Source: Patulibacter sp. (GTDB lineage Bacteria > Actinomycetota > Thermoleophilia > Solirubrobacterales > Solirubrobacteraceae). Taken from it: a stretch of DNA of 27,016 bases. The notes beneath the pieces are model-generated. The model saw nothing but the letters and a program-made list of their open reading frames with translations. It did no database searches and was not told where the DNA came from. Both the position numbers and the translations under genes were made by a program. Location of the stretch: assembly GCA_031119595.1 (NCBI GenBank), contig JAVHXX010000005.1, forward strand, positions 1-27,016, written 5' to 3'. This document shows, one piece after another, positions 5,603-22,719 of this stretch (positions are counted from its first letter, which is position 1; the number at the start of each line of letters is the position of its first letter).

Positions 5603-6241
5603 TCAGGCGGTCTCGTCGGGGCGGTGCCACACGACGAGGTCGTCGACGTACTCCTTGGGCGGCACGCCGCCGTCGGCGTAGCCGAGACACAGGACGCCGG
5701 CGAAGTCGTTGTCGGTGCCGAGGGTGGAGCGGATCTCGTCCTCGGCGATGAGTGGATCGCCCATGAAGACGCCGTGGAGGCCGTGGTGTTCGGCGGCGAG
5801 CCACATCGTCTGGATGCAGGCGCCGAGGCCGATCATCTCGAAGCCGTAGCCGACGAGCGCGGAGCGGAGGACGTCGCCGGTGGCGGCCGCGACGGTCGTA
5901 CGGCCGCTGCTGAACTCGCCGCGGTTCTCGATGAAGATCGCGAGGGGAACGTGCCCCAGGACGTGGGCGGATTCGGCGACGGTCGAGGTCCAGCGGCGAG
6001 GCTCTCCGGTCGCGGGATCGAGTGGGACGTACCGGGCGGCGTTCTTCGCCTGCTCGACGGTGCGGGCGAGATGGCCGAGGATCGCCCGGTCGGTGACGAC
6101 GTGCAGCCGCCACGGTTGGGCGTTCTTCGACGACGGTGCCGCGAGACCGCAGCTGACGATCGAGCGGACGACCTCCTCCGGGACGGCACGCTCCGCGAAC
6201 GCCTCGCGCACGCTCCGTCGGCCCAGGATCGTCTCGATCAT
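5603..6241 (-). CDS. Nitroreductase family (FMN-binding) protein
   Basis: ILGRRSVR, APSSKNAQPWRLHVV, IGLGACIQTMWLAAEHHGLHG and LCLGY are nitroreductase signatures. ATG at 6241 lies 7 nt downstream of a TACAGT -10 box. Confidence 0.9.
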   Translation of the reverse strand: MIETILGRRSVREAFAERAVPEEVVRSIVSCGLAAPSSKNAQPWRLHVVTDRAILGHLARTVEQAKNAARYVPLDPATGEPRRWTSTVAESAHVLGHVPLAIFIENRGEFSSGRTTVAAATGDVLRSALVGYGFEMIGLGACIQTMWLAAEHHGLHGVFMGDPLIAEDEIRSTLGTDNDFAGVLCLGYADGGVPPKEYVDDLVVWHRPDETA

Positions 6242-6248
6242 GCGCGGC

Positions 6249-6254
6249 ACTGTA
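6249..6254 (-). promoter_or_regulatory. -10 element (TACAGT) of a leaderless promoter for the nitroreductase
   Basis: TANNNT hexamer exactly 7 nt before the ATG at 6241; no SD sequence. Confidence 0.55.
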
Positions 6255-6348
6255 TCGACGGCCCGCCCGAGGCCGGAAGACACCACGGCGCGTGTGCTCT
6301 CGGAACGTCCTTGCCACACGGCCCTTTCCGTGGCGCCAACCCCTGCTC

Positions 6349-6354
6349 TAGCAT
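6349..6354 (+). promoter_or_regulatory. -10 element (TAGCAT) of a leaderless promoter for the 6362-15781 operon
   Basis: TANNNT hexamer exactly 7 nt before the GTG at 6362; divergent from the nitroreductase promoter. Confidence 0.55.
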
Positions 6355-6361
6355 GGCGCCG

Positions 6362-7027
6362 GTGAGCAGCCCGACCCCCGAGCGATCGAAGCGTCGGCGA
6401 GAGATCCCGGGTGAGTCGCTGGGCGACGTCTGGTTCGTGCACTGGGTCGCGGCACAGGCGTACGACGACGCCCGGGCGCCGGGTACCCAGAACCTGATGC
6501 GCCACGACGCCAACGGACCAAACCCGACCGAGCACCCCTCTGAGGCGCCCCACCCGAACATCGTGATGGTGCCTCTGCTCGGAGGAACCGCCGCCGCCCA
6601 GGTGGTCGACACGGTCCAGGGGAAGTCGACCTCGCCGCGATTCGGCGACAACGCGGACTACACGGAGGACCACCGACGGTTCCTGCTGCAGGTTCCGCAG
6701 AACGTCGGCGGCCTGAACAAGAAGGTCACGAACTTCTTCTTCCACGAGGCGTATTACCAGTCCGACGTCGCGCTCTCGACGCTCTCGTACCGCGATCCCG
6801 ACACCGGCAAGGGCGGCTTCTGCACGGGCAACGTCATCCGTCGCAAGGAACTTCGCGATGGCGATCGGCGCCCGGTCGACGCCGAGACGGTGTCATGGCC
6901 GTGGCTCGACCGCATCGTGCACGTGCTCGAGGACCTCGATGCCCGTGACGGTTGGTCGCCGCCCTACGCGCTGCCGATCTGGTCGGCGAAGCGAGCACAA
7001 CTCCGTGAACACGCCGATGCCGCCTGA
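6362..7027 (+). CDS. Hypothetical protein (about 221 aa), first gene of the plus-strand operon
   Basis: Protein-like composition rich in aromatic and polar residues (DVWFVHWV, TNFFFHEAYYQ). The upstream part of ORF 5579..7027 is antisense to the nitroreductase. The alternative start is ATG 6353. Confidence 0.75.
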   Translation: MSSPTPERSKRRREIPGESLGDVWFVHWVAAQAYDDARAPGTQNLMRHDANGPNPTEHPSEAPHPNIVMVPLLGGTAAAQVVDTVQGKSTSPRFGDNADYTEDHRRFLLQVPQNVGGLNKKVTNFFFHEAYYQSDVALSTLSYRDPDTGKGGFCTGNVIRRKELRDGDRRPVDAETVSWPWLDRIVHVLEDLDARDGWSPPYALPIWSAKRAQLREHADAA

Positions 7028-21242: not shown

Positions 21243-21280
21243 CGAGTCCGGGATCCACCACCCGGCGGAGCCCGGACTCG
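21243..21280 (+). other. Strong stem-loop upstream of the small-peptide RBS
   Basis: CGAGTCCGGG (21243-21252) pairs perfectly with CCCGGACTCG (21271-21280), with further pairing inside the loop. Confidence 0.65.
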
Positions 21281-21308
21281 ACCACCACACACGAACCAGG
21301 AGCCCACC

Positions 21309-21431
21309 ATGGGATTCAACCCCGAGATCAAGAAGCCCACGAAGCCCGTCGAGACCGCCCCGCGCAAGCAGGCGGATCCCAGCAAGATCGGCGGCGCGGC
21401 CCTGAAGGGTGCGGGCGTGAAGAAGCCCTGA
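21309..21431 (+). CDS. 40-aa Lys/Pro-rich small protein MGFNPEIKKPTKPVETAPRKQADPSKIGGAALKGAGVKKP
   Basis: CAGGAG RBS 7 nt before the ATG, host-like codons (AAG, CCC, GCC) and an A-rich coding sequence against a GC-rich background. Flanked by hairpins on both sides. Embedded in the ORF-track entry 21111..21431. Confidence 0.75.
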   Translation: MGFNPEIKKPTKPVETAPRKQADPSKIGGAALKGAGVKKP

Positions 21432-21442
21432 CGGAGGCAGGT

Positions 21443-21472
21443 GCCGGCGCGTCGCCAGGACGGCGCGCCGGC
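21443..21472 (+). terminator. GC-rich stem-loop just after the peptide stop (terminator or 3' stabiliser)
   Basis: GCCGGCGCG (21443-21451) pairs with CGCGCCGGC (21464-21472); there is no U-tract. Confidence 0.5.
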
Positions 21473-21522
21473 CCGCGCACGGGTTGCCCTGACGGCGCGC
21501 GTCGTGTGGGCGACGGACGAGC

Positions 21523-22719
21523 ATGAGCTCATCCGATGTCCCGCCGCAGCCGTCCGACCCGCGTTCGCCGTCGCCGGACCACGCCCCGCACGGGGTGGTG
21601 CCGGGGATCGACTGGATCGTCGTCGCCCACCCCGACCGGGAGGTGGCAGGAGCCCGCGCTGCATCGGTCGGCGCATCGCTCGCCGGGGTGCCGACGTCGG
21701 CCGCGTCGACCGGGACGGACGCGCGCAGAGCCGCGAGCGCGCGCGAGGGCTGCGGGCTCTTCCTGGTCCACGTCGCCGGGATCGACCGCTTCGTGCGGGG
21801 CTGGTCCGGCGAGCGCCTCGCGACACGGGTGCGCAGCGAAGCCGGACACACCTGCGTGGCCTGGGTTCCACACGGTGACCTCGACGGTGCCGCGGCGGCT
21901 CGCGCGGTCGGCCTCACCGTGGTGGACCTCGACGCGGTCCGCGACGCGCCCGCGGAGGTGGCCCGCATCCTCCGGGTGGCGACCAGCGTCGTCCCGTCGC
22001 CGCCCGATCCGGGCGGGGCCCCGGGGAGCGGGGAGGTCCACGGGCAGCCGCACTCCCTCGCGGACACCCTCGAAGGTGAGGACTTCGTGCGGTGGTTCCG
22101 GGCGCGGTACGACCGGCGGTGGGAACCGGCGATGGAGCACCTCGCGGTGGCGCTGCTCGGCGGCGGTTGCCAGGCCGATCAGGCGGACCGGCTCTGCGCG
22201 GAACACGTCTTCGAGAACCCCCGCACGGCCACGCGACGCCTGCGCTCGATGGCGGAGTGCCTGAGCGGTGAGATCCGCGGCGACGACGCGCTCGTCCGCG
22301 ACGAGGCCGCGGTGGTCGTGCGTCGGCTCGGTCGCGCCTGTTCCCTCACCGCCCGGCCGTTCGTCGCCCGGAGCCTGGCCCTGACGGTCCGCCGCCTGGC
22401 GGCCGACCCGACGCTCGCCGCCGAGGCCGGGCTGGTAGCGGCGGACGTCGACGTCCTCACGCGTGTGTCCGACGGCGCCGAGCGCGTCGTCCTGCCCGCC
22501 CGTCGCGGCTGCGGTGCCCCACGCCCCGGTCGCCCGCCCGCGGGGATCTGGAAGCTGCGCCGCGACCTGGCGATCGGCCGCATCGCCGGAGCGCCGGGTG
22601 GTGACCGCGTCGGGAAGCTCGGCCGACAGCGAGCCCTCGACGCGCTCGTGGCCCGTGCACTGGAAGCGGTCGACGACGTCCTCCTCGACCGCGAGCGACG
22701 CCATCGCGCCGCCGGCTGA
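21523..22719 (+). CDS. Atypical response-regulator-like protein (pseudo-receiver plus HTH-like region)
   Basis: WIVVAHPDREVA (cf. ILVVDDD), LFLVHV (cf. LVLLD; Asp replaced) and GWSGERLATRVR (cf. GMSGLELARRLR). A later LAVALLGGG.QADQADRL...RTATRRLRSM segment resembles a LuxR-type HTH. Confidence 0.5.
   Translation: MSSSDVPPQPSDPRSPSPDHAPHGVVPGIDWIVVAHPDREVAGARAASVGASLAGVPTSAASTGTDARRAASAREGCGLFLVHVAGIDRFVRGWSGERLATRVRSEAGHTCVAWVPHGDLDGAAAARAVGLTVVDLDAVRDAPAEVARILRVATSVVPSPPDPGGAPGSGEVHGQPHSLADTLEGEDFVRWFRARYDRRWEPAMEHLAVALLGGGCQADQADRLCAEHVFENPRTATRRLRSMAECLSGEIRGDDALVRDEAAVVVRRLGRACSLTARPFVARSLALTVRRLAADPTLAAEAGLVAADVDVLTRVSDGAERVVLPARRGCGAPRPGRPPAGIWKLRRDLAIGRIAGAPGGDRVGKLGRQRALDALVARALEAVDDVLLDRERRHRAAG

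What the first reader, a model, noticed from the sequence alone, without database searches (positions are those of the whole stretch)
5603..22719. Candidate new system: biosynthetic enzymes hard-wired to an NLR-like STAND/SIR2/CHAT signalling or defence module
Seen in the sequence: two operons face each other, with stop codons at 15781 and 15785. Nearly every junction within them is a 4-nt GTGA/ATGA overlap (8894, 10045, 11400, 13418, 17830); the other two overlap by 11 and 34 nt. Each arm carries its own copy of the same radical SAM enzyme, a group-transfer enzyme (ATP-grasp on the left, carbamoyltransferase on the right) and conflict-type proteins (SIR2-like plus nSTAND1 on the left, CHAT on the right). 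A nitroreductase, an ECF-like sigma factor, a small peptide and a pseudo-response regulator sit on divergent promoters at the two ends. Established: nSTAND1, SIR2 and CHAT domains are recurrent parts of prokaryotic NLR-like conflict systems, while radical SAM, ATP-grasp, carbamoyltransferase and nitroreductase are typical of metabolite or peptide tailoring clusters. Inference: the enzymes make a modified small molecule or peptide that acts as the signal, ligand or effector of the STAND/CHAT/sigma circuit. I know of no described system with this composition, but I could not search.
Basis: partly seen in the sequence, partly recalled or inferred. Interest (0 to 1): 0.92.

Follow-up and report, generated by a model that had tools for sequence, protein, structure and literature searches.

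The report
Enzyme cassette wired to STAND module
A rare, horizontally spread gene cassette joins three or four small-molecule enzymes to an NLR-like ATPase switch and swappable cell-killing-type proteins; it looks like an undescribed microbial immune or conflict system whose chemistry is still unknown.

Summary
The gene layout is real. Two convergent operons have stops at 15781 and 15785, with five 4-nt overlaps plus 11-nt and 34-nt overlaps. They encode two paralogous radical SAM enzymes (34% identical), a biotin-carboxylase/PurK-like ATP-grasp, an ATCase paralogue, a nitroreductase, a SIR2_2-like protein, an nSTAND1-pentapeptide NTPase and a CHAT-fold protein.

The 'ECF sigma' and 'pseudo-response regulator' were not confirmed. 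The 'small peptide' is only a short upstream ORF shared with one relative.

The co-occurrence test is passed.
- rSAM + ATP-grasp + ATCase-like is a conserved core in about 40 species-level genomes, including CPR bacteria and DPANN archaea.
- In 13 of these loci (four phyla, all three rSAM clades) a SIR2-like/nSTAND1-pentapeptide pair sits inside the cassette.
- All nine relatives of the STAND's specific region appear to lie on rSAM-bearing contigs (three checked directly, six inferred from matching contig lengths).
- Effectors swap between CHAT, TIR and catalytically intact SIR2.

PADLOC, NCBIfam and the literature searches found no matching described system.

Best reading: an undescribed NLR-like conflict system coupled to a carbamoyl/carboxyl-transfer pathway. 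What the pathway makes, and whether the product is a signal, a toxin or a self-mark, is unknown.

In this copy the SIR2-like protein lacks the catalytic Asn and His, and the CHAT-like protein lacks the catalytic His.

The parts
5603..6241 (-). Nitroreductase-family flavoenzyme, divergent from the left operon. Probable start is ATG 6241; the 380-aa ORF reaching 6745 is over-extended.
   Evidence: Pfam PF00881, 92.9 bits. Homologues of 207-234 aa lie next to the cassette in at least 12 loci and align from residue about 169 of the long ORF. L049 orthologue is 76% identical over 6241-5606.
6353..7027 (+). First gene of the left operon, about 224 aa, unknown family. It overlaps the next gene by 11 nt.
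   Evidence: tblastn with the L049 231-aa protein: 37% identity, E 4e-35. Candidate starts. No Pfam hit.
7017..8897 (+). Unknown 626-aa protein; an accessory gene specific to Solirubrobacterales.
   Evidence: Orthologue L049:8100-10004, 32% identity, E 1e-42, aligning from residue 60 of the long ORF. Weak shared segment with the L004 953-aa and L010 502-aa proteins. No Pfam, PADLOC or Atlas assignment.
8894..10048 (+). Radical SAM enzyme A (A-type clade). CX3CX2C at C138/C142/C145.
   Evidence: PF04055, 31.6 bits over cut-off; NF045502 below cut-off. 34% identical to rSAM-B. Separate starred clade with L006, L045 and L048. Residue numbers.
10045..11403 (+). ATP-grasp enzyme of the biotin-carboxylase/PurK/PurT structural group; a core gene of the cassette.
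   Evidence: AF2 model pLDDT 93.4. Foldseek PDB top hits are biotin carboxylase subunits and domains, PurK, PurT and PurD, E about 1e-16, TM about 0.6. Homologues in 37 of 42 loci.
11400..13421 (+). SIR2_2-like protein, probably catalytically inactive. Rossmann LGAGC at 27-31; AGYD 388-391 replaces TN(Y/F)D; S481 replaces the His of KLHG.
   Evidence: Orthologues pass Pfam SIR2_2: L021 47.7, L041 56.4, L034 29.3 bits. Alignment A3. ESM Atlas lead 0.90 to SIR2_2. Residue numbers.
13418..15781 (+). nSTAND1 NTPase with a C-terminal pentapeptide-repeat domain. Walker A 46-52, Walker B 148-154, and a conserved N-terminal PGPxP motif.
   Evidence: PF20703, 53.2 bits; pentapeptide families. Alignment A9. 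All nine non-self relatives of residues 330-787 appear to lie on rSAM contigs: three seen directly, six by matching contig length.
15785..17833 (-). CHAT-fold (caspase-like) protein. C299 is present; T256 stands where all 25 relatives have the catalytic His.
   Evidence: AF2 pLDDT 80, pTM 0.78. Foldseek: Csx29 TPR-CHAT 5.5e-8, separase, SAVED-CHAT, DdvA. Family of 26 representatives in 1.8 billion proteins. Dyad table. Codon ACC.
17830..18729 (-). ATCase-family carbamoyltransferase paralogue. The carbamoyl-phosphate site is kept; the aspartate site is replaced.
   Evidence: OTCace_N and OTCace. TIGR00670 at 174-176 bits, below the 237 cut-off, while a canonical pyrB on contig C610 scores 292. 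SxRTR, HPxQ and PLPRxDEI are kept, but TRxQxER is replaced by (A/T)G(L/F)P in all 29 family members; a canonical pyrB in L037 keeps it.
18696..19889 (-). Radical SAM enzyme B (B1 clade). CX3CX2C at C132/C136/C139. Database call is 397 aa from GTG 19889.
   Evidence: PF04055, 32.5 bits. 270 homologues at E<=1e-5, with the own record at 397 aa. Tree.
19859..19987 (-). 42-codon upstream ORF (starts V-R-C-D-L-D-V) with a Shine-Dalgarno-like AAAAGAGGGGG. It overlaps the start of rSAM-B.
   Evidence: Same start, SD and first seven codons in L006/L049 only. Not found in other loci.
20321..21193 (+).
   Evidence: Homologue in the same position in L006, 32% identity, E 5e-26. No family hits. hhalign against own sigma factors E 0.095. 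No other homologue.
1..5582 (+). Neighbouring conserved module: unknown protein (1-927), NrdG-like small radical SAM (920-1711), 159-aa protein (1711-2190), ClpB-D2-like AAA+ (2187-4001) and unknown 516-aa protein (4032-5582). Possibly a second defence system in the same island.
   Evidence: Same genes next to the cassette in L049 and in Solirubrobacter L004. NrdG TIGR02491 at 98 bits, below cut-off. The AAA+ hits PADLOC PDC-M37B at 1.5e-18 and DolB at 3.6e-14.

Best explanation
The window holds a complete copy of an undescribed, horizontally mobile, multi-gene conflict system, most likely anti-phage or anti-mobile-element.

CORE. The constant core is an enzyme cassette:
- a distinctive radical SAM enzyme (two paralogues here);
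- an ATCase-family carbamoyltransferase that keeps its carbamoyl-phosphate site but has lost the aspartate site;
- a biotin-carboxylase/PurK/PurT-like ATP-grasp;
- usually also a flavin enzyme (a nitroreductase here).
Together these are inferred to build or modify a small ureido/carboxy-amine compound, possibly nucleobase-like.

SWITCH. In this class of the system the cassette is interleaved with a SIR2_2-like protein and a dedicated nSTAND1 NTPase whose C-terminus is a pentapeptide-repeat domain. I infer that the STAND is an NLR-like switch. Its pentapeptide and/or SIR2-like module is functionally tied to the cassette's product or to its target. Its activation is inferred to drive lineage-specific effectors: a CHAT-fold protease here, a TIR domain or a catalytically intact SIR2 NADase elsewhere.

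SHOWN: the gene content, the family and fold assignments, the active-site states, and the conserved two-way gene linkage across phyla.

INFERRED: that the linkage means one pathway; that it acts in defence; what the product is; and whether the product is a signal, an antiviral compound or a self-mark.
For: Gene linkage
- rSAM, ATP-grasp and ATCase-like genes co-occur in 39, 37 and 30 of 42 non-redundant loci, from Actinomycetota to CPR bacteria and DPANN archaea.
- The SIR2-like plus nSTAND1-pentapeptide pair lies inside the cassette in 13 of 40 species-level loci in four phyla. The commonest order is ATP-grasp > SIR2-like > STAND, with overlapping stop and start codons.
- These loci are scattered over all three rSAM clades.
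- Reverse direction: all nine non-self relatives of STAND residues 330-787 appear to lie on rSAM-bearing contigs. L006, L162 and L163 were seen directly; six are inferred from matching contig lengths.
- Only 3 of 80 generic nSTAND1 loci carry the cassette. Two of the three (L076, L080) match the STAND beyond its NTPase; the third (L090) sits on a 6-kb contig and matches only the NTPase.
- The full two-arm layout of the window recurs in L006/L049 and L163.

Conflict-system signatures
- Variable effectors on a constant core: CHAT-fold (window, L006, L027, L062, L163); TIR (L007, L162; fused to the SIR2-like protein in L034; pentapeptide-TIR in Thermoanaerobaculia); SIR2 with intact TN(Y/F)D and KLHG only in L021, L030 and L041.
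- Island context: GmrSD, a methylase and a DEAD/MZB helicase beside L007; GmrSD_N beside L161; a DolB/PDC-M37B-like AAA+ in the window; recombinases, transposases and a relaxase elsewhere.
- The system is rare and patchy: 2 of 401 sampled Actinomycetota genomes.

Enzyme chemistry
- ATCase motifs.
- A canonical pyrB lies elsewhere in the genome.
- ATP-grasp fold neighbours.
Against: - No experiment and no known family ties any of these genes to defence. PADLOC gives no hit for any of the ten genes from 5603 to 21193, and none for the L021 and L007 SIR2-like and STAND orthologues beyond two weak AAA-type hits.
- About two thirds of loci have the enzymes without a STAND, including tiny CPR and DPANN genomes. 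The cassette therefore has a function of its own, which could be plain metabolism or a natural product. Transporters, a TetR regulator, methyltransferases and decarboxylases sit nearby in some loci.
- No sensor-ligand or protein-protein contact has been shown.
- In this window the SIR2-like protein lacks the catalytic Asn and His, and the CHAT-like protein lacks the catalytic His. This copy has no demonstrably active effector.
- No homologue was found on viral contigs, so there is no direct link to phages either way.
Confidence: 0.55

Rival explanations
1. A natural-product or antimetabolite gene cluster with pentapeptide-repeat self-protection. The four enzymes make a toxic small molecule, for example one aimed at DNA or a topoisomerase. 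The pentapeptide protein is the immunity factor, as McbG, AlbG and Qnr are for gyrase poisons (from my own knowledge of those families). The STAND/SIR2/TIR/CHAT forms are regulators or later add-ons.
For: - The enzyme core stands alone in most loci.
- Three metagenomic loci carry the four enzymes plus a free-standing pentapeptide protein of about 350 aa with a partner of about 345 aa, and no NTPase.
- Pentapeptide domains recur in three different fusions: free, TIR-fused and STAND-fused.
- MFS transporters, TetR, TrmB, a methyltransferase and PLP decarboxylases lie beside some cassettes.
Against: - SIR2, TIR and CHAT partners and effector swapping are hallmarks of abortive-infection-type systems, not of pathway regulators.
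- The STAND has no DNA-binding output domain.
- Contexts are defence-island or mobile-element like.
- The pentapeptide similarity between forms is only at repeat level, E 1e-4 to 1e-6.
Confidence: 0.2
2. A modification-restriction-like logic. The enzyme cassette places a carbamoyl/carboxyl-type mark on a self macromolecule (nucleic acid or protein). The SIR2-like/STAND pair fires when unmarked or foreign material appears. Orphan cassettes would be the counterpart of orphan modification genes, as in Dnd or Dpd.
For: - The modification-only versus modification-plus-killer distribution fits: core alone in most loci, plus the pair in 13 of 40.
- In L028 the SIR2-like and STAND genes are fragmented while the enzymes stay intact.
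Against: - No DNA- or RNA-targeting domain (transglycosylase, glycosylase, helicase, nuclease) is conserved in the cassette.
- The ATP-grasp and ATCase folds resemble small-molecule enzymes of nucleotide biosynthesis.
Confidence: 0.1
3. Two unrelated systems that merely share a defence island: an enzyme cassette of its own function, and an Avs-like SIR2/STAND module.
For: - Defence genes cluster in islands, and the window itself holds a second candidate module with a DolB-like AAA+.
- The gene order around the pair varies between loci.
Against: - The pair is interleaved between cassette genes with 4-nt overlaps.
- The association recurs in four phyla and three rSAM clades.
- The specific STAND subfamily was found only with the cassette: nine of nine relatives, three verified directly.
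- The CHAT-like family (26 representatives in 1.8 billion proteins) sits in the rSAM-ATCase operon in the four contigs examined with enough flank; a fifth contig of 3.2 kb was too short to judge.
Confidence: 0.08

Closest known systems
Avs/AVAST-type STAND (NLR-like) anti-phage systems, especially SIR2-STAND forms (Avs5-like)
   Same: A STAND NTPase with intact Walker A and B, a C-terminal repeat domain in the sensor position, and SIR2, TIR or protease modules as outputs.
   Different: - The SIR2-like module is a separate gene and is mostly catalytically dead.
- The sensor-position domain is pentapeptide repeats.
- No PADLOC model hits.
- The module is embedded in a three-to-four-enzyme cassette that no Avs system has, to my knowledge.
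nSTAND1-containing conflict systems of Kaur, Burroughs, Iyer and Aravind (eLife 2020, 2021)
   Same: The NTPase belongs to the nSTAND1 clade named there (Pfam PF20703). A constant core with rapidly varying effectors is the organising principle those papers describe.
   Different: Those papers contain no mention of ATP-grasp, carbamoyl enzymes, SIR2 or nitroreductase with these NTPases. Their single radical SAM case is a vWA-type system with a peptide effector.
Signal-synthase immune systems (Thoeris, CBASS, Pycsar, type III CRISPR)
   Same: Possible logic: dedicated enzymes make a small molecule that controls SIR2, TIR or CHAT-type effectors. The L007 TIR resembles Pycsar/CAP12 TIR effectors.
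   Different: None of their synthase families (TIR, CD-NTase, cyclase, Cas10) is present. The enzymes here are radical SAM, ATCase-like and ATP-grasp. No sensor domain of the SLOG, SAVED or CARF type was found.
Prokaryotic viperins (radical SAM chemical defence)
   Same: A radical SAM enzyme in a defence-like context. The enzyme cassette can stand alone, as an antiviral-metabolite maker would.
   Different: The rSAM is a different family; its closest solved sequences are ThiH-like at only E 0.002-0.003. It needs two or three partner enzymes and is coupled to a STAND.
Type III-E Craspase (Csx29 TPR-CHAT with Csx30 and RpoE) and the DdvA CHAT anti-sigma factor
   Same: These are the best structural matches of the CHAT-fold protein.
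   Different: No TPR, no CRISPR partner, and the neighbouring 290-aa protein could not be shown to be a sigma factor. The window's copy lacks the catalytic His.
De novo pyrimidine and purine enzymes (CPSase/biotin carboxylase/PurK ATP-grasp, ATCase, flavin dehydrogenase)
   Same: The same enzyme folds and the same order of chemical logic: ATP-dependent carboxyl or carbamoyl activation, carbamoyl transfer, then flavin redox.
   Different: The acceptor site of the ATCase-like enzyme is rebuilt, a canonical pyrB exists elsewhere in the genome, there is no dihydroorotase, and a radical SAM enzyme is added.

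Membership tests
nSTAND1 NTPase (Pfam PF20703) | HMM score over the gathering cut-off, with intact Walker A and Walker B | tested here: met
   53.2 bits against 27.1. SGVGKTS at 46-52 and LDQFEEL at 148-154.
Avs/AVAST anti-phage STAND systems | Match to a curated defence-system model | tested here: not met
   PADLOC gives no hit for the window's STAND or for orthologue L007. L021 gives only weak mad3/mad8 AAA hits.
Avs/AVAST anti-phage STAND systems | Effector domain fused to the N-terminus of the STAND | tested here: not met
   Walker A starts at residue 46. The SIR2-like, CHAT-like and TIR modules are separate genes.
Avs/AVAST anti-phage STAND systems | Protection against phage when expressed | not testable with these tools
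   Needs a phage challenge of a strain carrying the locus.
SIR2_2 (Pfam PF13289) NADase effectors | HMM match | tested here: inconclusive
   The window's protein gives no hit even at E<=10. Orthologues in the same gene position pass: L021 47.7, L041 56.4, L034 29.3 bits. Atlas lead 0.90.
SIR2_2 (Pfam PF13289) NADase effectors | Catalytic Asn of TN(Y/F)D and His of KLHG (positions as in ThsA, from my own knowledge) | tested here: not met
   The window has AGYD and IIHVSGAP. Both residues are kept only in L021, L030 and L041.
CHAT / caspase-like peptidases (Pfam PF12770) | HMM match | tested here: not met
   No Pfam hit. A six-frame CHAT search of the genome hits contig C2 only. hhalign against nine genuine CHAT domains gives E 0.11, aligned only at the Cys motif.
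CHAT / caspase-like peptidases (Pfam PF12770) | CHAT/caspase fold | tested here: met
   Foldseek: Csx29 5.5e-8, separase, SAVED-CHAT, gingipain; probability 1.0. Model pLDDT 80.
CHAT / caspase-like peptidases (Pfam PF12770) | His-Cys catalytic dyad | tested here: not met
   C299 is present, but T256 replaces the His that all 25 relatives have.
Aspartate carbamoyltransferase (TIGR00670 equivalog) | Score over the curated cut-off | tested here: not met
   174-176 bits against 237. The genome's canonical pyrB scores 292.
Aspartate carbamoyltransferase (TIGR00670 equivalog) | Carbamoyl-phosphate site (SxRTR, HPxQ, PLPR) and aspartate site (TRxQxER) | tested here: inconclusive
   The carbamoyl-phosphate motifs are kept. 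The aspartate motif is replaced in all 29 cassette-linked members but kept in a control pyrB. The protein is a superfamily member that is probably not an ATCase.
Radical SAM superfamily (PF04055) | HMM over cut-off and the CX3CX2C cluster motif | tested here: met
   31.6 and 32.5 bits against 29.5. The three Cys are invariant in alignment A1. Residue numbers.
ECF sigma factors (Sigma70_r2 / r4) | Regions 2 and 4 detectable | tested here: not met
   No Pfam or NCBIfam hit. 41 Sigma70_r2 matches in the genome, none on this contig. hhalign E 0.095 over 19 columns.
RiPP gene cluster (rSAM / ATP-grasp / nitroreductase type) | A conserved precursor peptide gene next to the modifying enzymes | tested here: not met
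   The small ORFs beside rSAM-B are unrelated between loci. The 42-codon ORF is shared with one relative only.
Dodola (DolA/DolB), for the neighbouring module at 1-5582 only | DolB-like ClpB-type AAA+ together with DolA | tested here: inconclusive
   The AAA+ hits DolB at 3.6e-14 and PDC-M37B at 1.5e-18. There is no DolA hit among its neighbours.

The most novel reading that the evidence does not exclude
A new class of NLR-like immunity in which a dedicated radical SAM / carbamoyltransferase / ATP-grasp (plus flavoenzyme) pathway makes a previously unknown ureido- or nucleobase-like small molecule. That molecule would be either the ligand read by a pentapeptide/SIR2-like sensor on a STAND switch or an antiviral compound whose production the switch guards. 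The enzyme-only cassette of CPR bacteria and DPANN archaea would be the ancestral stand-alone form.
Probability: 0.3. Interest if true: 0.95.

Novelty: new variant of a known kind. Interest (0 to 1): 0.8.

Why it matters
If the linkage is functional, it adds a new chemistry (radical SAM plus carbamoyl/carboxyl transfer) to prokaryotic immune or conflict systems. It would also tie an NLR-like switch to a metabolite pathway.

It defines a conserved enzyme cassette of unknown product that reaches into the minimal genomes of CPR bacteria and DPANN archaea.

It gives a dedicated CHAT-fold family, a pseudo-SIR2 family and a pentapeptide sensor-position domain to study.

A cultured carrier exists (Solirubrobacter deserti CPCC 204708), so the question can be tested directly.

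Tried and rejected
Family and profile searches
- Pfam, NCBIfam and PADLOC on the window's SIR2-like, CHAT-like, 626-aa, 290-aa and 398-aa proteins gave no hits, even at E<=10.
- hhalign of the CHAT-like family against genuine CHAT domains was weak (E 0.11) and was superseded by the fold search.
- hhalign of the 290-aa protein against the genome's own sigma factors was not significant.
- The homologue search for the 290-aa protein returned only itself.
- The ESM Atlas was uninformative for the 626-aa protein; a PemK-like hint at 0.77 was not pursued.
- Pfam on gene 6353-7027 and on the small neighbouring genes gave nothing.

Complex prediction
- SIR2-like protein with the STAND N-terminus: the tool gave no answer. 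This is not evidence either way.

Other scans
- Viral contigs with the rSAM profile: no relatives.
- Rfam and tRNA scans of the window: nothing.
- Promoter and terminator scan: nothing above shuffles, as expected at this GC content.
- tblastx between the window and L006 upstream regions was too noisy at this GC content.
- Search for a shared precursor peptide: none beyond one relative.

Literature
- Six searches, plus two Aravind-lab papers read for the relevant terms, found no description of this combination.

Considered and rejected
- Housekeeping pyrB: a canonical copy lies elsewhere in the genome.
- RiPP cluster: no conserved precursor.
- Chance juxtaposition in an island: see the rival explanations.

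Full report
WHAT THE WINDOW IS

The 27,016 bases are one whole contig (C295) of a metagenome-assembled genome of 4.55 Mb in 655 contigs, 86% complete. GC content is about 72%. The closest relatives of its genes are in Solirubrobacterales. At this GC content raw ORF lists are useless (136 ORFs of 80 aa or more). I therefore called genes by third-position GC and refined starts by comparison with orthologues.

CHECK OF THE OBSERVATION

The geometry is as described.
- GTGA or ATGA overlaps lie at 8894, 10045, 11400 and 13418 on the plus strand and at 17830 on the minus strand.
- The two convergent stop codons end at 15781 and 15785, 3 nt apart.
- The 34-nt overlap is between rSAM-B (stop at 18696) and the ATCase-like gene (GTG at 18729).
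I found that gene only through its orthologue in the nearest relative.

Family assignments:
- Both radical SAM proteins pass PF04055 and are 34% identical paralogues.
- The carbamoyltransferase has both OTCace domains.
- The NTPase passes nSTAND1 and has pentapeptide repeats at its C-terminus.
- The nitroreductase is real, but the 380-aa ORF is over-extended. Homologues are 207-234 aa and the L049 orthologue aligns from ATG 6241.

Both turn out to be right at family or fold level.
- SIR2-like: orthologues in the same gene position pass Pfam SIR2_2 (L021 47.7 bits, L041 56.4 bits, L034 29.3 bits).
- CHAT: an AlphaFold model built on a 26-sequence alignment (pLDDT 80) matches Csx29 TPR-CHAT, separase, SAVED-CHAT and the DdvA anti-sigma CHAT domain, with best E 5.5e-8.
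- The ATP-grasp is weak by HMM. It folds with pLDDT 93 and matches biotin carboxylases, PurK, PurT and PurD at E about 1e-16.

Three peripheral items are not confirmed.
- The 290-aa 'ECF-like sigma' has no Sigma70 signal.
- The 'pseudo-response regulator' has no hit and no homologue.
- The 'small peptide' is only a 42-codon upstream ORF shared with one relative.

DOES THE COMBINATION RECUR?

The rSAM-B family has at least 270 relatives. A scan of one genome per species returned 40 loci. I called and clustered the ORFs of all the loci and searched them by tblastn with the window's proteins.
- A constant core appears: rSAM in 39 of 42 non-redundant loci, ATP-grasp in 37 and ATCase-like in 30.
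- A flavin enzyme is often added. It is a nitroreductase in at least 12 loci by tblastn and an FAD oxidoreductase in several Saccharibacteria.
- Carriers span Actinomycetota, Acidobacteriota, Pseudomonadota, Chloroflexota, Omnitrophota, many CPR bacteria, DPANN archaea and Methanosarcinales.
- The rSAM tree mixes these phyla, which indicates horizontal transfer.
- The system is rare. True orthologues occur in 2 of 401 sampled Actinomycetota genomes.

In 13 of the 40 species-level loci a SIR2-like gene followed by an nSTAND1-pentapeptide gene lies inside the cassette. About nine of the remaining loci are too short to judge. The commonest order is ATP-grasp > SIR2-like > STAND. These loci come from four phyla and fall in all three rSAM clades.

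The closest relative (L006/L049) is syntenic with the window gene for gene, from the NrdG-like rSAM at the left to the 290-aa gene at the right. Another contig (L163) has the same two-arm layout.

A compact one-operon form lies in a Mycobacteriales genome. Its order is rSAM, ATCase-like, ATP-grasp, SIR2-like, STAND, AbiJ_NTD5-TIR. It sits next to GmrSD, a DNA methylase and a large DEAD/MZB helicase.

The reverse direction also holds. The STAND's subfamily-specific region (residues 330-787) has nine non-self relatives in 5.8 billion clusters.
- One is the STAND of L006, already seen with the cassette.
- Two more were looked up and carry the cassette genes (L162, L163).
- Six lie on contigs whose lengths equal those of contigs carrying rSAM-B homologues, which I take to mean the same contigs.
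- Among 80 loci found with generic nSTAND1 NTPase motifs, only three carry the cassette. Two of them (L076, L080) are the loci that match beyond the NTPase. The third (L090) sits on a 6-kb contig and matches only the NTPase.
- The CHAT-like family is tiny (26 representatives in 1.8 billion proteins). It sits after rSAM and ATCase-like, tail to tail with the STAND, in the four contigs examined that had enough flank. A fifth contig of 3.2 kb was too short to judge.

ACTIVE-SITE STATES

ATCase-like family: all 29 members keep the carbamoyl-phosphate motifs (S-x-R-T-R, H-P-x-Q, P-L-P-R-x-D-E-I). All replace the aspartate-binding T-R-x-Q-x-E-R with (A/T)-G-(L/F)-P. A canonical pyrB that happens to lie in locus L037 keeps the aspartate motif. 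The window's genome has its own canonical pyrB on another contig. The enzyme therefore probably carbamoylates something other than aspartate.

SIR2-like family: the catalytic Asn (TN(Y/F)D) and His (KLHG) are both kept only in L021, L030 and L041. The window has AGYD and S481, and the whole actinobacterial group is similarly changed. These look like stable pseudo-enzymes rather than decay.

Where SIR2 is inactive, another effector is often present:
- CHAT-fold protein (window, L006, L027, L062, L163);
- a separate TIR (L007, L162);
- a TIR fused to the SIR2-like protein (L034);
- a pentapeptide-TIR protein in Thermoanaerobaculia.
The rule is not complete. For L004, L010, L011, L038, L044 and L048 I found no recognisable effector.

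CHAT-like family: the Gly-His-Gly and Ala-(Met/Ser)-Cys-Gly-Ser motifs are kept in all 25 relatives. The window alone has Thr256 (codon ACC) for the His. This copy may be attenuated, or the change may be an assembly variant.

THE PENTAPEPTIDE THREAD

Three further metagenomic loci carry the four enzymes followed by a two-gene pair: an unknown protein of about 345 aa and a free-standing pentapeptide-repeat protein of about 350 aa, with no NTPase.

Pentapeptide repeats therefore accompany the cassette in three forms: free, fused to TIR, and fused to the STAND. The similarity between these forms is only at repeat level, so this is a lead, not proof. It does suggest that the pentapeptide domain is the interface between the enzymes (or their product or target) and the killing modules. 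It also feeds the natural-product rival.

HOW IT MOST LIKELY WORKS

Shown: content, folds, active-site states and two-way linkage.

Inferred:
1. The enzymes form one pathway. The ATP-grasp belongs structurally with enzymes that activate bicarbonate or formate and acylate a nitrogen (biotin carboxylase, PurK, PurT). The ATCase-like enzyme transfers a carbamoyl group to a non-aspartate amine. A flavin enzyme and a radical SAM enzyme complete a sequence that parallels the ring-building steps of nucleotide synthesis. A ureido or nucleobase-like small molecule is my best guess for the product, held with low confidence.
2. The SIR2-like/STAND pair is an NLR-like switch. Its sensor-position pentapeptide domain and pseudo-SIR2 are tied to that product or to its target.
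3. Activation drives CHAT, TIR or SIR2 effectors, as in abortive-infection systems.

The enzyme-only form in most genomes shows that the cassette works by itself. That fits an antiviral or toxic metabolite, a self-mark or plain metabolism better than an infection-triggered second messenger. For that reason I do not commit to the 'signal' version.

COMPARISON WITH KNOWN SYSTEMS

The switch resembles SIR2-STAND Avs systems and the nSTAND1 conflict systems of the Aravind laboratory. It fails curated defence models. Neither of the two Aravind-laboratory papers I read for these terms mentions ATP-grasp or carbamoyl enzymes; 'nitroreductase' and 'SIR2' were searched only in the 2020 paper and are absent there.

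The CHAT-fold protein is structurally nearest to Craspase Csx29 and to DdvA, both of which control sigma factors. The neighbouring gene could not be shown to be a sigma factor.

No paper in the searchable library combines these enzyme families with STAND, SIR2 or TIR.

VERDICT

This is a real, conserved, horizontally mobile and apparently undescribed system. The specific mechanism is open. I rate it as a new variant of a known kind (STAND/NLR-like conflict systems), with about a 30% chance that it is a genuinely new class in which a dedicated pathway supplies the ligand or the weapon.

Noticed in passing
window 1-5582: A five-gene module: unknown protein, NrdG-like small radical SAM, 159-aa protein at 1711-2190 (missed by plain ORF calling), ClpB-D2-like AAA+ and unknown 516-aa protein. 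It sits next to the cassette in the window, in L049 and in Solirubrobacter L004. The AAA+ hits PADLOC DolB and PDC-M37B. It may be a second defence system or a further part of this one.
   Followed up: partly
window 15779-15787; L006 11931-11934; L027 16173-16185; L062 12049-12053: The STAND gene and the CHAT-like gene meet tail to tail with 3 to 11 nt between them, or a 4-nt overlap (L006), in four loci. No terminator-like hairpin was found in the window. Convergent transcripts would overlap, which hints at antisense or interference control.
   Followed up: partly
window 19859-19987 (-) and 19990-20010: A 42-codon upstream ORF overlaps the rSAM-B start. Its Shine-Dalgarno-like sequence, GTG start and first seven codons are conserved in L006/L049, but the rest of the peptide differs (25 versus 42 codons). 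It could be a leader peptide for translational control.
   Followed up: partly
window 17066-17068 (codon 256 of the gene at 15785-17833, minus strand): Thr (ACC) stands where all 25 relatives of the CHAT-like family have the catalytic His. This could be a dead protease or an assembly variant of the MAG.
   Followed up: yes
L028 about 13500-16500, compared with L034: In one Thermoanaerobaculia genome the SIR2-like and STAND genes survive only as tblastn fragments, while the enzyme genes are intact. Its close relative L034 has both genes whole. This suggests the killing module is lost more easily than the cassette.
   Followed up: partly
L159 14886-17086, L160 14638-16742, L161 14742-16831: A third architecture: four enzymes plus an unknown protein of about 345 aa and a free-standing pentapeptide-repeat protein of about 350 aa, without an NTPase. 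L161 also has a GmrSD_N gene nearby, and L160 has a VapBC pair and an integrase fragment.
   Followed up: partly
L014 11241-12323; L004 6115-7443; L062 6077-7597: PLP-dependent decarboxylases accompany some cassettes. An Orn/DAP/Arg decarboxylase takes the ATCase position in L014, and OKR_DC_1 decarboxylases lie just upstream in L004 and L062. This hints that a basic amino acid or polyamine is a substrate.
   Followed up: no
window 6353-7027 and 7017-8897 (N-termini): Both proteins begin with a similar G-(D/E)-V-W motif in a short strand-like segment. The Atlas gave only a faint PemK/MazF-like hint (0.77) for the second. They may share a small N-terminal domain.
   Followed up: no
window 25576-26085: A purine/xanthine-type phosphoribosyltransferase gene lies 5 kb right of the system. 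It would be of interest only if the cassette's product is a nucleobase. It is not conserved in related loci.
   Followed up: partly
L019, L028, L032, L034, L039 (about 7600-9760): A pentapeptide-TIR_2 protein next to an ISAZ013-type transposase lies just upstream of the rSAM in five Acidobacteriota loci, belonging to two different rSAM clades. Some of these loci lack a STAND.
   Followed up: partly
alignment A1 (rSAM family): Beyond the CX3CX2C motif, the family has an invariant C-terminal G-P-R-C-x-x-C-x-H-N motif with a further invariant Cys. It also has a highly conserved N-terminal domain of about 100 residues (E-Y-A-T-x-G ... N-A-P). These suggest an auxiliary metal site and a dedicated substrate-binding domain.
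   Followed up: no
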